Shown in pieces: positions 39,605 to 44,664 of a DNA stretch of 64,000 bases. Within the stretch, counting starts at the first letter, position 1; the number at the start of each line of letters is the position of its first letter. The DNA is taken from contig JAEOTZ010000018.1 of the NCBI GenBank assembly GCA_016839585.1, positions 1 through 64,000 of the forward strand, written 5' to 3'. The notes under the pieces are model-generated. The model saw only the letters and a list, made by a program, of their open reading frames with translations, ran no database searches and had not been told where the DNA came from. The stretch comes from Promethearchaeota archaeon. GTDB lineage: Archaea > Asgardarchaeota > Lokiarchaeia > Sigyniarchaeales > SOKP01. The position numbers and the translations under genes are program-made.

Positions 39605-39670
39605 TCTAATTAAATTACAATTTTCCTTATTATTAATTAGAATGTATTTTAGCATTCTAGTGATTATTAT

Positions 39671-40549
39671 ATGATCAATCAAAACTCTAAATCGGGCGAT
39701 ATTTCGGGTTTTATAACAGTCGATGGTATTAAACTCAATTACATCATCGAGGGGGAGGGAATTCCTTGCCTAGTTATTGGTATGTTATCAAAATTCTACC
39801 AACCTGTTTTTTCCAGCAAAATAAAGAAGCATTTAAAATTTATTTTCGTGGATTTTAAAATATTTATCCCTGGGGTTTCTATTGATGTAAATAATATATC
39901 AATGGATATAATAGTTGAAGATCTTGAAAAAATACGCATTGCATTAGGCTTTGAAAAAATTGCTGTATTGGGGCACTCAGCATTTGGGATAATTGCTCTC
40001 GAATATGCTTTCAATTATCCACAGAGAACATCCCATATTATTATGATTGCTTCTTTTCCACCAAACATGACTGATGAAAATTTAAAAAGAGGTTCAGAAT
40101 TCTTGGAATATGATGCATCGAAAGAGAGAAAAATGATTCAGAGAAAAAATAATGAACCCCTTACAGAAGAATTTTTGAGCACTGTATCTCCTACAAAAGC
40201 TCTTGCTTTGCAATATGTAGCTAATGCTCCTATTTATTGGTATGATCCTACTTATGATTGTTCATGGATCTGGCGAGGAATTGAACTCAACATGGATGCA
40301 TTTAATTATTTCTATTCTAAAATTATTAGAGGGAAGGATACCACTCAAAAAATCTTGAATATAACAATTCCTAAGTTTTTATCTATGGGTCGCTATGATT
40401 ATAGTGCACCATATATCTTATGGGATAATTTGATAAATGAAATACCAAACTTAACGCATTATTTATTTAAGAAAAGTGGTCATTGGCCAATGCTCGAAGA
40501 GCAAGTCCTATTTGATAAGAGAATAATTGAATGGATTAATAATTTATAA
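39671..40549 (+). CDS. Alpha/beta hydrolase (proline iminopeptidase-like)
   Basis: GHSAFG nucleophile elbow, GRYD, SGHWP. Confidence 0.85.
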   Translation: MINQNSKSGDISGFITVDGIKLNYIIEGEGIPCLVIGMLSKFYQPVFSSKIKKHLKFIFVDFKIFIPGVSIDVNNISMDIIVEDLEKIRIALGFEKIAVLGHSAFGIIALEYAFNYPQRTSHIIMIASFPPNMTDENLKRGSEFLEYDASKERKMIQRKNNEPLTEEFLSTVSPTKALALQYVANAPIYWYDPTYDCSWIWRGIELNMDAFNYFYSKIIRGKDTTQKILNITIPKFLSMGRYDYSAPYILWDNLINEIPNLTHYLFKKSGHWPMLEEQVLFDKRIIEWINNL

Positions 40550-40572
40550 AAAGAGAAAAAAAGTTTTATTAC

Positions 40573-41364
40573 TTAGGGATATTTTTGATGTAAATTCTTT
40601 ATAAAATCATCCAGCTCCTTCATAGATTTCTTTTCTGTAGCATAAGCAGCTTTCCCGCATTCGTCTTCTAAATCGAGGCATGATTTAATATAGACTTTAT
40701 TCATAATCGTTAACATGGATTTTGTAAAGAAGATAAATTCTGTTTGATATTTGACTATTTTTTTAGCAAAATTAAGGGTTTCAGCATCAATTTGATCGAG
40801 TGGAAAAACTCTCGTTGGAAAATTAATATTTTTTAACTGTTCCACACTAACTCTATCTGCAGTAAAAAGTAACTGTTTTGCGTAAGATAATCCAAAAGCC
40901 AGCAATGGTAAAAGGGTTGCTCCAGTCTGCGGGAAGGCAGAAATAGAGAGTTCGGGTAATTGTATATATAACTCATCCTTAGGTCTATCCGCAAAGATCC
41001 TTAAATCAGAAGCAAGTATCAGTAAAACACCAAATCCAACAGCAATGCCTTGAACTTGAGTTATTACTGGTTTCTTCATGAGAAGAATAGTTTCATTGAC
41101 TTTTCTACCCCACTCTGTTACTTTAACTGCTTTTTCAGGAGCCCCTTGTATTTCTTTAAGGTCATACCCCGCAGAAAAGAATCTCTGGCCAACACTTTTA
41201 ATAATAATACATTTAACTTTTTCATGTTTATCTGCTTCTACTAACTTCTCATGTATCAGTTTTAACATCGAAATATTACAGGCATTTGCTTTATCGGGTC
41301 TATTTAATGTAATTATAGCGATACGTCCTCTCACTTCATATATTATATTTTCTTGAATACTCAT
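40573..41364 (-). CDS. Enoyl-CoA hydratase/isomerase family protein
   Basis: ITLNRPDKANA, FSAGYDL, KPVI..VQGIAVGFG. Confidence 0.9.
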   Translation of the reverse strand: MSIQENIIYEVRGRIAIITLNRPDKANACNISMLKLIHEKLVEADKHEKVKCIIIKSVGQRFFSAGYDLKEIQGAPEKAVKVTEWGRKVNETILLMKKPVITQVQGIAVGFGVLLILASDLRIFADRPKDELYIQLPELSISAFPQTGATLLPLLAFGLSYAKQLLFTADRVSVEQLKNINFPTRVFPLDQIDAETLNFAKKIVKYQTEFIFFTKSMLTIMNKVYIKSCLDLEDECGKAAYATEKKSMKELDDFIKNLHQKYP

Positions 41365-41476
41365 AAGATCTTTAACTTAAATTCTAATTTAAAGTATATT
41401 GAACTTAATTAATCTTATTAAATTAGATATATTATTCCACGAAATATCTAAAAATTTCAATAGTAAATGAATTATC

Positions 41477-42403
41477 ATGAAAATTAGACCTTTTGAATCA
41501 AATGACAAGACTAGAGTTGTAGAGGTACTGGATCGAGTACTTAAGTATGATAATCCTGCTTTGGGGATGGATGAAGACCTGTTTAATGCAGCATTAGCAT
41601 TCGAGGGTGAGCAGACTATTCTTTCCCGTGATTTTTTGGTTGCAGAAGATAATGAAGGAAAAATAATTGATTTTAGTGGTCTTCTTAAATCTTCTAAGCG
41701 AGATTCTTGGCGGTTAGCATTTGAGGTAATACCAGAATATTTTACATCAACTATTTTTGTAGAATTATTTGAATCGATATTAAACATCAAAAATGAACAA
41801 AATGGCCCAGAGATTAGATTTTCCTTAAAAAAATATAAATTAACAGATTCACCACTTCAAAGAAAGCTCAATGAAATGGGATTAAAACCAGTTCATTATA
41901 ATTGGGAGATATTTTTAGAGGATACTGACCCACCTCCCAAAATAAACGTTCCACCTGGCATTAATATTCATTCAGGTAAGGATGTAACTGATATAGCGAG
42001 TTATATTAATGTGCATAATGAAGCTTTTAGTGAACATTTTGGATTCAGACCTTATTCAGAAAAAGAATTCAAATTAATCCTTAAGAAAGCATGGAAAGCA
42101 TATGATATTGAACATTGGTTTGCTTATGACAAAGAAAAACTTGTTGGGGTTTGCACCTCTCAAATCAATCCAGAATTTAAAACGATTGGTCTTATACAAA
42201 TATTAGGTGTTCTTCCAAGTTATCAGCACCGGGGAATTGGAAGATGCTTGCTGGCATCTAACATTCAATCACTTATTGAGAAGGGATGTGAAAAGATCGA
42301 GTTAGGTGTTGAGGCTAATAATGAAAAAGCGTTAACTTTGTATAAGAAATTTGGTTTTAAAGAAGATGAATCACGAACAGTAATGATCTATAAAACTAAA
42401 TAA
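41477..42403 (+). CDS. Tandem-GNAT acetyltransferase (MshD-like)
   Basis: LGVLPSYQHRGIG, LGVEANNEKALTLYKKFGF; HNEAFSEH. Confidence 0.85.
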   Translation: MKIRPFESNDKTRVVEVLDRVLKYDNPALGMDEDLFNAALAFEGEQTILSRDFLVAEDNEGKIIDFSGLLKSSKRDSWRLAFEVIPEYFTSTIFVELFESILNIKNEQNGPEIRFSLKKYKLTDSPLQRKLNEMGLKPVHYNWEIFLEDTDPPPKINVPPGINIHSGKDVTDIASYINVHNEAFSEHFGFRPYSEKEFKLILKKAWKAYDIEHWFAYDKEKLVGVCTSQINPEFKTIGLIQILGVLPSYQHRGIGRCLLASNIQSLIEKGCEKIELGVEANNEKALTLYKKFGFKEDESRTVMIYKTK

Positions 42404-42600: not shown

Positions 42601-43638
42601 GTGGCTAAAAGAATATCGATCAATGGATTCGGAAGGATTGGGCGCAATTTTTTTCGCGCGTTATCGGAAAAATATCCCAATGATATCGAAGTTGTTTCCA
42701 TTAATGATTTGTTTGAACCCAAATATCTAGCTTATGTCTTAAAATACGATACAGTATTTGGAAGATTTCAGGGTACTGTCGAGTCTAATGAAAATGCGTT
42801 AGTTGTGAATGGGAAAGAAATTCCAATCACAGCTGAGAGAGATCCAGCAAATTTACCACATTCGAGTAATAATATTGATGTAGCAGTAGAATGTACTGGA
42901 TTCTTTACTAAAAGAGAAGGTGCCGCAAAGCATTTAGAAGCAGGGGCTAAACGAGTCCTTATCAGTGCACCTGCCGTTAATCCAGACTTTACTGTCGTTA
43001 TCGGGTGTAATGATGATAAATTAACTAATGAGCATAAAATTATCAGTATGGCGAGCTGTACTACTAATTGTTTAGGTCCTGTAGTAAAAGTGTTAAATGA
43101 CAATTATAAAATACAAAGCGGTATTATGACCACAATTCACTCATACACCGGTGATCAGAGAACTGTGGATACCGCACGAGCAGGAGATCCTGTAAAGATG
43201 ATTAGAGGAAGAGGCGCCGCTGCAAATATTTTACCAACAAGTACTGGAGCGGCAAAAGCAATTGGTGTAGTCTTTCCAGAGTTGAACGGTAAGCTAGATG
43301 GTATAGCAATGCGTGTCCCAACACCAGATGGATCAGTAGTAGATTTAAAATGTAATGTAGAAAAAAGAGCGACAGCAACAGATATTAATAATAAAATGAA
43401 AGAATATGCAAATGGACAATTAAAAGGAATTTTAGAATATACTGACGATGCGATTGTAAGTAGCGATATAATAGGAAATCCAGCGAGTTCTATTTTCTCT
43501 TCACTATGGACAAAAGTTATAGGGAGTATGGTTGGCGTAGTCTCGTGGTAATCTTGCTACAATTAGTAAAAAGACCATATTGATAATGAATGGGGCTTCT
43601 CGAACCGTATGGCTGATTTGATCGTTCAAAAATTATAG
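42601..43638 (+). CDS. gap: Class I glyceraldehyde-3-phosphate dehydrogenase, split: exon1 42601-43550 plus exon2 43581-43638 (335 aa after splicing)
   Basis: NGFGRIGR, ECTG, ASCTTNCL, STGAAKA, RVPT; joined junction TGG TA|T GAT AAT GAA TGG gives SWYDNEWGFSNRMADLIVQKL*. Confidence 0.9.
43551..43580 (+). other. Candidate archaeal bulge-helix-bulge (BHB) intron in gap mRNA, 30 nt
   Basis: Central 4-bp helix GUGG(43545-48)/CCAU(43575-78); 3-nt bulges UA^A(43549-51) and AU^U(43579-81); intron helix UCUU(43552-55)/AAGA(43571-74); exon pairs C43544-G43582 and U43543-A43583. Confidence 0.82.
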
Positions 43639-43658: not shown

Positions 43659-43679
43659 CTTATTTTTTTATTTTTTTAT
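43659..43679 (+). terminator. U-tract archaeal terminator of gap
   Basis: TTATTTTTTTATTTTTTTA about 20 nt after the exon-2 stop codon. Confidence 0.55.
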
Positions 43680-43835: not shown

Positions 43836-44255
43836 ATGAATGTTGAAAAAATAAAGAAAGTATTAACAGAAATTTTATTAGAAAATAAGGAGATTATCGC
43901 ATCCTATCTTTATGGTTCTGTATTATACAGTGATTTATATGAAGATATTGATGTTGGATTATTAATTAGCGATATTTTTAAACCGAAACTAATGTATGAA
44001 GCAAAAATAGCTGGAAAATTAGAAAAAAAGCTTAGAGATACTTTTGGGGAGATTAAACCAGTAGATGTTAGAATTTTAAATGACAAACCTTTAAGATTTC
44101 TTTTTTCAATGCTTAAAAATTCTAAAATTATTTGCTCGAGTGATGAGACCAAAAGAATTAAATTTGAAGCAGAAGTTATGAAAGAATATTTAGATATTAA
44201 GCCACATTTCGAAATTTATGATAAGATGAGAGAGTTAAGATATGCAAATAGATAG
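43836..44255 (+). CDS. MNT (minimal nucleotidyltransferase) antitoxin
   Basis: YLYGS..EDIDVG, VDVRILN; overlaps downstream HEPN gene by 14 nt. Confidence 0.88.
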   Translation: MNVEKIKKVLTEILLENKEIIASYLYGSVLYSDLYEDIDVGLLISDIFKPKLMYEAKIAGKLEKKLRDTFGEIKPVDVRILNDKPLRFLFSMLKNSKIICSSDETKRIKFEAEVMKEYLDIKPHFEIYDKMRELRYANR

Positions 44256-44664
44256 AGAATTAATTCATGGAAAAATAGATATTATTGAACGAAATATTAC
44301 CTTTTTAAATACATATAAAGAAAAGAGTGAAGTTGAAATTTTAAGTAGCTATAAAGATGTTCAAGCTATTAAATATTCACTATTTGAAATAATTGAAGCT
44401 TGCATTGATATTGCGTCGCATATAATTTCTGGTAAAGGCCTTCAAAGAGCCGAAAGTTATGCTGAAATGTTTGAGATTCTTGGAAAAAATGATATTTTAA
44501 AAACTCAATTGAGTAAAGAATTATCCAATATGGCAAGATTCAGAAATGTCCTTGTTCATGGATATGCTAAAATTGATAATTCTAAGATTCTTGTTTTTAC
44601 AAAAGAAAAACTAATAGATGTGGAAAATTTTATTAAAGCAATAATAGAATTAATAAAAGAATAA
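44242..44664 (+). CDS. HEPN/DUF86 RNase toxin
   Basis: RNVLVHGY (Rx4HxY) motif. Confidence 0.9.
   Translation: MQIDRELIHGKIDIIERNITFLNTYKEKSEVEILSSYKDVQAIKYSLFEIIEACIDIASHIISGKGLQRAESYAEMFEILGKNDILKTQLSKELSNMARFRNVLVHGYAKIDNSKILVFTKEKLIDVENFIKAIIELIKE

What the first reader, a model, noticed from the sequence alone, without database searches (positions are those of the whole stretch)
43549..43581. The unspliced GAPDH intron acts as a translational off-switch
Seen: although the insert length (30) preserves the frame, the unspliced message has three in-frame stops: TAA 43549 (formed by the 5' bulge itself), TAG 43564 and TAA 43567. The U-tract terminator lies only after exon 2, so the whole unit is probably transcribed. 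Established: the lost YDNE segment includes the Asn that contacts the nicotinamide ring in class I GAPDH. Inference: active enzyme depends on splicing, so EndA/RtcB activity or RNA folding could gate glycolytic or gluconeogenic flux. The weak exon-side helix (2 bp, then a C-U mismatch) could make splicing conditional.
Basis: inference. Interest (0 to 1): 0.7.

Follow-up and report, generated by a model that had tools for sequence, protein, structure and literature searches.

The report
New tRNA-type mini-intron in Asgard GAPDH
The only GAPDH gene of this Loki-type (Promethearchaeota) archaeon carries a very recently gained 30-base insert shaped like a tRNA intron; it almost certainly has to be cut out of the mRNA to give active enzyme, but nothing shows that it is a metabolic switch.

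Summary
Observation confirmed. A type I GAPDH frame (42601-43550) is broken by a 30-nt insert (43551-43580). It has in-frame stops at 43549, 43564 and 43567. Removing it restores TGG TA|T GAT = WYDNEWGFSNRMADLIVQKL*.

The insert and its flanks can form a canonical bulge-helix-bulge (BHB) motif. Its two cut sites are exactly the frame-restoring ones (about 8e-4 in shuffles). The genome has alpha- and beta-type EndA, RtcB, and no other GAPDH.

The insert is very young. It is absent from 101 other GAPDH-bearing genomes of the family and from two relatives 97-98% identical in protein. Nine window-specific substitutions crowd the 37 exon bases around it (P about 1e-9). All are synonymous, and without them the BHB cannot form.

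I found the same signature at a 30-nt insert in an Sm gene of this genome. A dnaG insert recurs at one site in six species, so mRNA mini-introns persist in this genus. Earlier notes of this scan list further cases on other DNA of this genome.

Best reading (0.72): a newly gained intron spliced by EndA/RtcB. The off-switch idea is only partly supported. Dependence on splicing is a sound inference. Regulation has no support: the intron is not conserved, three stops are near chance (P about 0.10), and a 2-bp outer helix also occurs at the Sm insert. No RNA data could be obtained.

The parts
42601..43550 (+). GAPDH exon 1: GTG start to TGG TA (codons 1-316 plus the first two bases of Tyr317)
   Evidence: ORF; TIGR01534 type I GAPDH, 385 bits against a cut-off of 367; start codon and 5' region identical in L035 and G095
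43551..43580 (+). 30-nt insert, the predicted BHB mini-intron
   Evidence: Absent in all relatives; no other copy in the genome; no Rfam family
43581..43638 (+). GAPDH exon 2: T of Tyr317, then DNEWGFSNRMADLIVQKL and stop TAG 43636-38
   Evidence: Identical in protein to L035 and G095 after removal of the insert
43549..43551 (+). 5' bulge UA|A; predicted cut after 43550; also the first in-frame stop (TAA)
43579..43581 (+). 3' bulge AU|U; predicted cut after 43580
43545..43548 (+). Central 4-bp helix H, exon strand GUGG, pairing with CCAU 43575-43578
   Evidence: pair probabilities 0.55-0.95
43575..43578 (+). Central helix H, intron strand CCAU
43552..43574 (+). Inner helix h' (UCUU 43552-55 with AAGA 43571-74) closing the intron loop; the free-energy fold prefers the hairpin 43554-59/43564-69 instead
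43543..43544 (+). Outer helix h, 2 bp with 43582-43583; made possible by the Ser codon switch AGC to TCG
43526..43542 (+). Exon 1 arm of a longer exon-exon clamp helix pairing with 43594-43610
43594..43610 (+). Exon 2 arm of the clamp helix
43542..43608 (+). Recoded patch: window-specific synonymous substitutions at 43542-45, 43590, 43596, 43599, 43602 and 43608
   Evidence: cluster P about 1e-9
43663..43677 (+). Two T7 runs after exon 2, the likely archaeal terminator

Best explanation
The 30-nt insert is a bulge-helix-bulge (tRNA-type) mini-intron that entered the sole, type I GAPDH gene of this Promethearchaeota (Asgard) archaeon very recently. The whole unit is transcribed to the T runs after exon 2. 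Exon 1 and exon 2 pair (clamp 43526-42/43594-610 plus h 43543-44/43582-83). The 4-bp helix GUGG/CCAU is flanked by the bulges UAA and AUU. The two-subunit EndA cuts after 43550 and 43580, and RtcB joins the exons to UGG-UAU-GAU, giving the normal 335-aa enzyme. Any message translated before splicing stops at UAA 43549. That is a by-product of an AT-rich insert, not an evolved switch. Shown: the anatomy, the recency, the recoded flanks, the enzymes, and persistence of such inserts in other genes of the genus. Inferred: that cutting and joining occur, and that they are constitutive.
For: (1) A canonical hBHBh' motif (h 2 bp, H 4 bp, h' 4 bp, two 3-nt bulges) has cut sites that coincide with the only frame-restoring boundaries. 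Shuffled inserts reach this in 7.6e-4; the background rate is 2.8e-4 per site and length. (2) The insert is absent from L035 (97% aa), G095 (98% aa) and the 101 other family genomes that hold GAPDH. Yet exon 2 keeps its frame, sequence and stop. (3) Nine window-specific substitutions lie in the 37 exon nt next to the insert, against 11 in the other 940 nt (P about 1e-9). All seven changed codons are synonymous, and all five exon-2 changes are at third codon positions, so exon 2 was under coding constraint in the GAPDH frame. (4) With the relatives' exon sequence the canonical BHB cannot form. AGC to TCG, a Ser codon-family switch seen in none of 40+ close relatives, creates both h pairs and the first H pair. 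Seven of the nine changes create or strengthen pairs. Random synonymous sets do as well in 1.9% of trials. (5) EndA alpha (Tyr/His/Lys present) and a beta-like paralogue without the His are present, as is RtcB. (6) This is the only GAPDH in a 99% complete genome; no class II enzyme was found. (7) The same signature appears at a 30-nt BHB insert in an Sm gene: 15 substitutions in the 37 nt upstream (P 2.5e-10) and codon-family switches that build h and H. A 37-40-nt insert sits at one site of dnaG in six species, with exons intact and the Gly codon fitted to the helix. (8) An independent Logan assembly of run SRR14699982 gives the same 316-aa frame.
Against: No RNA evidence was obtained. The BHB is not the minimum-free-energy fold: h and h' have pair probabilities below 0.04, and the BHB-constrained fold is -17.5 against -24.4 kcal/mol. 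A second register (28 nt, 43552-43579) forms an equally good BHB but would leave the stop in frame. The insert is known from one genome only. With this query, 14 of 53 genomes of the genus gave no GAPDH match, so the gene may be dispensable in some relatives. The whole-fold energy test of the flank changes alone is weak (p = 0.065). Outside the patch the terminal branch has about three non-synonymous against two to four synonymous changes, too few to show purifying selection.
Confidence: 0.72

Rival explanations
1. Fresh pseudogene: a 30-nt insertion has just inactivated GAPDH, and the BHB-like shape is fortuitous. The cell gets by without this enzyme.
For: The insert occurs in one genome only. 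There are three in-frame stops. About a quarter of the genus genomes gave no GAPDH match. The BHB is not the preferred fold. The dN/dS count on the terminal branch is uninformative.
Against: The BHB register coincides with the frame-restoring boundaries (about 1e-3). Nine flanking changes are all synonymous and enable the BHB; a dead gene would not restrict five of five exon-2 changes to third codon positions. This is the sole GAPDH in a 99% complete genome. The same pattern appears at the Sm gene, and inserts persist in dnaG.
Confidence: 0.12
2. One reading: the intron is spliced conditionally, so that EndA/RtcB activity or RNA folding gates the amount of active GAPDH (a HAC1/XBP1-like switch).
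For: Enzyme output must depend on splicing efficiency (inference). The BHB competes with other folds and with a non-productive 28-nt register. The stop sits directly at the 5' splice site.
Against: There is no conservation: the insert is absent from relatives 97-98% identical in protein and from the whole sampled family. The stop count is near chance. The Sm insert also has a stop at its 5' end and a 2-bp h, and the dnaG insert has no h at all, so these are generic traits of the mini-introns. No sensor or regulator is linked to it.
Confidence: 0.08
3. The gap is skipped without RNA splicing (ribosomal bypass as in T4 gene 60, from UGG 43546 to UGG 43591), or it is an assembly artefact.
For: UGG followed by a stop lies at the foot of a hairpin, and a second UGG lies 45 nt downstream.
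Against: Bypass would delete YDNEW, which is invariant in all relatives, and cannot rebuild the split Tyr codon TA|T. The change at 43590 is synonymous in the DNE frame. An independent Logan assembly reproduces the 316-aa frame. Inserts of the same kind at other genes have different sequences.
Confidence: 0.04

Closest known systems
BHB intron in the cbf5 pre-mRNA of Crenarchaeota (Watanabe 2002; Yokobori 2009, PMC2738675)
   Same: A tRNA-type BHB intron lies inside a protein-coding sequence and is removed by the tRNA-splicing endonuclease and ligase. Lineage-specific gain and loss are documented. A 2020 paper still cites cbf5 as the one mRNA in which the BHB motif had been found, and itself adds one further EndA-cut mRNA in Haloferax (PMC7714728).
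   Different: The phylum (Asgard), the gene (a central metabolic enzyme of bacterial type) and the age differ: cbf5's intron is ancestral to two orders, whereas this one is missing from a relative 98% identical in protein. Splicing is shown experimentally for cbf5 and only predicted here.
Recently gained tRNA introns of Asgard archaea (bioRxiv 10.64898/2026.10.13.758758)
   Same: The same host group, the same BHB requirement at the boundaries, two EndA paralogues, and many gains on terminal branches with no known route of arrival.
   Different: Those introns are in tRNA genes, and the preprint does not treat mRNAs. Here the host is a coding sequence, and the gain comes with a synonymous recoding of the exon flanks.
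HAC1/XBP1 unconventional splicing (from my own knowledge, not checked here)
   Same: An mRNA is cut by a non-spliceosomal endonuclease at stem-loops and joined by an RtcB-type or tRNA ligase. The unspliced form gives no active product.
   Different: HAC1/XBP1 introns are conserved and are cut by a stress sensor (IRE1). Here there is no conservation, no sensor, and no evidence of conditional cutting.
Co-conversion of exon flanks in homing of group I and archaeal rRNA introns (from my own knowledge)
   Same: The intron is accompanied by a short tract of diverged flanking exon sequence.
   Different: A 30-nt insert encodes no homing endonuclease. No donor allele was found in 102 family genomes or in the closest 14 metagenome contigs. 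The changes also build the splice motif, so compensatory evolution is an equal candidate.

Membership tests
Archaeal BHB (tRNA-type) intron | Two 3-nt bulges on opposite strands separated by a 4-bp helix | tested here: met
   UAA 43549-51 and AUU 43579-81 around GUGG/CCAU (G.U, U-A, G-C, G-C)
Archaeal BHB (tRNA-type) intron | Flanking helices h (exon-exon) and h' (intron-intron) | tested here: met
   h 2 bp, then a C-U mismatch; h' 4 bp; further exon-exon pairing at 43526-42/43594-610
Archaeal BHB (tRNA-type) intron | Cuts after the second bulge base give a functional product | tested here: met
   The join gives TGG TAT GAT = WYD, identical in protein to L035 and G095
Archaeal BHB (tRNA-type) intron | The host encodes the splicing endonuclease and the RtcB ligase | tested here: met
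   EndA alpha and a beta-like paralogue, and RtcB
Archaeal BHB (tRNA-type) intron | The motif is the favoured fold of the transcript | tested here: inconclusive
   H forms with probability 0.55-0.95, but h and h' stay below 0.04. A 28-nt out-of-frame register is equally good
Archaeal BHB (tRNA-type) intron | Excision and exon ligation are seen in RNA | not testable with these tools
Type I (bacterial/eukaryotic) GAPDH | Match to the family model above its curated cut-off; catalytic Cys and His | tested here: met
   TIGR01534 scores 385.2 bits against 367.2. SCTTNC and the IHSYTGDQ motif are present in the ORF. The class II model gives no match
Regulated unconventional-splicing switch (HAC1/XBP1-like) | Intron conserved among relatives that share the regulation | tested here: not met
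   Absent in 101 other GAPDH-bearing family genomes and in L035
Regulated unconventional-splicing switch (HAC1/XBP1-like) | Condition-dependent spliced/unspliced ratio | not testable with these tools
   No RNA data could be obtained
Programmed translational bypass (T4 gene 60 type) | Matched take-off and landing codons whose use yields the functional protein | tested here: not met
   The only matched pair (UGG 43546 / UGG 43591) would delete the invariant YDNEW
Group I / group II intron | Ribozyme core | tested here: not met
   The insert is 30 nt and the window has no Rfam match

The most novel reading that the evidence does not exclude
The GAPDH insert is an mRNA intron gain caught almost in the act. 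In this Promethearchaeota lineage, BHB mini-introns enter protein-coding genes (GAPDH, Sm, dnaG, and others noted by the scan), and each arrives with, or quickly acquires, a short synonymously recoded exon patch that builds the splice motif. That would point either to an active, homing-like transfer by short-patch gene conversion from intron-bearing alleles, or to very fast compensatory evolution. It would give a living model of how introns colonise coding genes in the closest archaeal relatives of eukaryotes.
Probability: 0.45. Interest if true: 0.85.

Novelty: new member of a known kind. Interest (0 to 1): 0.62.

Why it matters
In the papers I could search, cbf5 of Crenarchaeota is the only archaeal gene whose coding sequence is reported to be spliced by the tRNA machinery. 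A second case in a central metabolic gene of an Asgard archaeon, next to further cases in the same genus, would mean three things. Gene finders truncate real genes there. The EndA/RtcB pathway acts on messages. Intron gain in coding genes is going on now in the lineage nearest to eukaryotes. The presence/absence pair (this window against G095 and L035, 1.2-1.5% divergent in the rest of the gene) with its recoded flanks makes the mechanism of gain directly testable. The metabolic-switch idea itself would matter only if conditional splicing were shown.

Tried and rejected

(2) Search for a second copy or donor of the insert. BLAST of the insert and a 70-nt flank against the whole genome gave only chance matches of 15 nt or less. 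An exact scan of genome contigs with the 3' junction pattern gave nothing. Fourteen close metagenome contigs and 102 family genomes carry no insert.

(3) Genome-wide census of BHB hits that rescue a broken frame: 2,770 hits against 2,464-2,678 in shifted controls, so it does not discriminate. A stricter list of 260 was dominated by adjacent genes and low-complexity tails.

(4) ARAGORN tRNA introns as a positive control for my BHB rule. Only 18 tRNAs were found and their intron calls are unreliable. By hand, tRNA-Thr has a relaxed BHB with a G.A mismatch in H.

(5) Whole-fold energy as a test of the flank changes: p = 0.065, partly because random synonymous changes raise G+C. I replaced it with a BHB-specific test.

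(6) Quasi-palindrome template switching as the source of the patch: rejected. The changes are spaced at third codon positions and include G.U pairs.

(7) Reassigned stop codons: rejected. The gene and its relatives end in TAG or TAA.

(8) A literature check of the Asn313-nicotinamide contact found no usable paper. That statement rests on my own knowledge.

Full report
WHAT IS THERE

The frame that starts at GTG 42601 encodes a type I GAPDH (TIGR01534, 385 bits, above the curated cut-off). It carries the GFGRIGR and SCTTNC motifs and stops at TAA 43549 after 316 codons. In the same frame TAG 43564 and TAA 43567 follow. The frame then continues as I-D-N-E-W-G-F-S-N-R...K-L and ends at TAG 43636-38.

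Every relative reads S-W-Y-D-N-E-W-G without interruption and stops at the same place. Only removal of 43551-43580 (30 nt) rebuilds the split Tyr codon (TGG TA|T GAT). After that removal the C-terminus is identical in protein to the two nearest relatives.

THE ORGANISM AND ITS MACHINERY

The nearest GAPDH genes lie in MAGs labelled Promethearchaeota or Promethearchaeia, including Loki_b31 and Loki_b32. The genome is 3.45 Mb and 99% complete.

- It has two EndA paralogues. One carries the Tyr/His/Lys catalytic residues. The other lacks the His, as structural beta subunits do.
- It has RtcB.
- It has no class II GAPDH and no second Gp_dh_C match.

A recent preprint reports the same two-paralogue EndA pattern and many recent tRNA-intron gains in Asgard archaea.

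THE MOTIF

I used the layout fixed by tRNA numbering: exon 1 ends with H plus two bulge bases, and the intron ends with H' plus two bulge bases.

- Outer helix h: 43543-44 with 43582-83, 2 bp, then a C-U mismatch.
- 5' bulge: UA|A, 43549-51.
- Central helix H: GUGG 43545-48 with CCAU 43575-78.
- Inner helix h': UCUU 43552-55 with AAGA 43571-74.
- 3' bulge: AU|U, 43579-81.

The predicted cuts are exactly the frame-restoring boundaries. Shuffling the insert gives H = 4 bp with h' of at least 4 bp in 7.6e-4 of trials. Across the genome the looser motif occurs at 2.8e-4 per site and length.

There are caveats. The free-energy fold keeps H (pair probability 0.55-0.95) but prefers another inner hairpin and a longer exon-exon helix (43526-42 with 43594-610) over h and h'. 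A 28-nt register shifted by one base is an equally good BHB but would leave the stop in frame.

HOW OLD IT IS

- None of the 101 other GAPDH-bearing genomes of the family (135 searched) has a shortened frame.
- None of 14 close metagenome contigs has the insert.
- The two nearest relatives read TGG TAT GAT straight through. They are the metagenome contig L035 (97% aa) and the species representative G095 (98% aa; MAG 9R3_44).
- Promoter region and GTG start are identical in these two relatives.
- An independent Logan assembly of run SRR14699982 reproduces the 316-aa frame, so an assembly artefact is unlikely.

THE RECODED FLANKS

Against both near relatives the window has 11 private substitutions in the first 940 nt of the gene. 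It has 9 in the 37 exon nt next to the insert: 43542-45, 43590, 43596, 43599, 43602 and 43608. Poisson P is about 1e-9.

All seven affected codons are synonymous, and the five in exon 2 are all third positions. One is a Ser codon-family switch, AGC to TCG. The AGY codon is shared by all 40+ closer relatives.

This switch alone creates both h pairs and the G.U pair of H. With the relatives' exon sequence the canonical BHB cannot be drawn at all. Seven of the nine changes create or strengthen pairs in the BHB-compatible fold. Random sets of seven synonymous codon changes allow the BHB in 13% of trials and match its stability in 1.9%. A cruder whole-fold test gave p = 0.065.

So exon 2 was read in the GAPDH frame while these changes arose, and the changes serve the splice motif. 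Two origins fit:

- A short conversion tract from an unsampled intron-bearing allele. Four of the five exon-2 states match a more distant clade of the genus.
- Rapid compensatory evolution in place.

No donor was found.

IS mRNA SPLICING PLAUSIBLE IN THIS LINEAGE?

Earlier notes of this scan list BHB mini-introns in other genes of the same genome. I tested two.

Sm gene (C59:53232-53203, minus strand).
- It carries a 30-nt strict-BHB insert with an in-frame TGA. Removing it restores the Sm motif RLFRGR|LEGFDEHLNLYL.
- It is absent from 22 relatives and from G095.
- It has 15 substitutions in the 37 nt upstream against a 4.4% background (P 2.5e-10).
- These include the codon-family switches CGT to AGA and TTA to CTC, which build h and H. 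This is the GAPDH signature again.

dnaG.
- It is split between FGQ and TEGLL by a 40-nt insert.
- Of the 25 related loci where the site could be read, five other genomes of the genus carry a 37-40-nt insert at the same site, making six with this one. The ends are conserved, the interior differs, and the exons are intact.
- The Gly codon before the insert is GGC or GGT, fitted to the helix. Most intron-less relatives use GGA or GGG there, and a few use GGC or GGT.

Inserts of this kind therefore persist through speciation in a replication gene, which is hard to explain without splicing.

THE OFF-SWITCH CLAIM

It follows from the anatomy that full-length enzyme depends on excision. It is reasonable, though inferred, that the 316-aa product is inactive. 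It lacks the C-terminal helix and the YDNE segment; the role of its Asn in nicotinamide binding is from my own knowledge (one search found no paper).

Nothing indicates regulation.
- The insert is not conserved.
- For this base composition and codon phase, P(at least 1 in-frame stop) is 0.77 and P(at least 3) is 0.10.
- The Sm insert also starts with a stop and has a 2-bp h, and the dnaG insert has no h.

Because archaeal translation can follow transcription closely, some truncated protein may be an unavoidable cost of the insert. That is an inference, not a finding.

COMPARISON WITH WHAT IS KNOWN

The closest precedent is the cbf5 pre-mRNA intron of Crenarchaeota (PMC2738675). A 2020 paper still cites it as the one mRNA in which the BHB motif had been found, and itself adds one further EndA-cut mRNA in Haloferax (PMC7714728). 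My literature searches found no report of BHB introns in Asgard coding genes.

I file the insert as a new member of a known kind. It is predicted, not proven, to be spliced.

- Spliced, with no evolved switch: 0.72.
- Fresh pseudogene: 0.12.
- Regulated switch: 0.08.
- Bypass or artefact: 0.04.

Noticed in passing
G000 contig C59:53203-53232 (minus strand; L118/L201): An Sm/LSm gene is split by a 30-nt strict-BHB insert with an in-frame TGA. Removing it restores RLFRGR|LEGFDEHLNLYL. The insert is absent in 22 relatives and in G095. There are 15 substitutions in the 37 nt upstream, including Arg and Leu codon-family switches that build the motif.
   Followed up: yes
G000 contig C61, L120:2095-2134 (minus strand): dnaG is split between FGQ and TEGLL by a 40-nt insert with H of 4 bp, h' of 3 bp and no h. 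Five other genomes of the genus carry a 37-40-nt insert at the same site with conserved ends (AGATA...ATCGGCTAA) and a variable interior. The other sampled relatives have none.
   Followed up: partly
window 43836-44664: Two overlapping ORFs of 139 and 140 aa look by eye like a nucleotidyltransferase/HEPN toxin-antitoxin pair; no family search was run on them. They lie just downstream of GAPDH and are missing at this place in L035. G095 has a different, shorter stretch there.
   Followed up: partly
window 39613-40575 and 41425-42302: Two gene-sized stretches (ORFs 39671-40549 and 41477-42403) have no counterpart at this place in G095, so the neighbourhood of GAPDH is a mosaic of gene-level indels. 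Flanking genes are 91-96% identical in DNA.
   Followed up: partly
window 43552-43579: An alternative BHB register (28 nt; H = UGGU/ACCA, h 3 bp, h' 3 bp) is as good as the productive one but would leave UAA in frame. If it is used, it would be a source of mis-spliced, dead messages.
   Followed up: partly
whole genome G000: ARAGORN finds only 18 tRNA genes in 3.45 Mb and none in this 64-kb window. Twelve of the 18 are called with introns, and one call (tRNA-Gln, C50:48710-50179) has a 1,376-nt 'intron'. The tRNA set is evidently heavily interrupted and poorly detected.
   Followed up: no
family-wide, search: 33 of 135 family genomes, 14 of them among the 53 of the genus and several 92-95% complete, gave no match to this GAPDH. 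The gene may be dispensable or replaced in part of the group.
   Followed up: no
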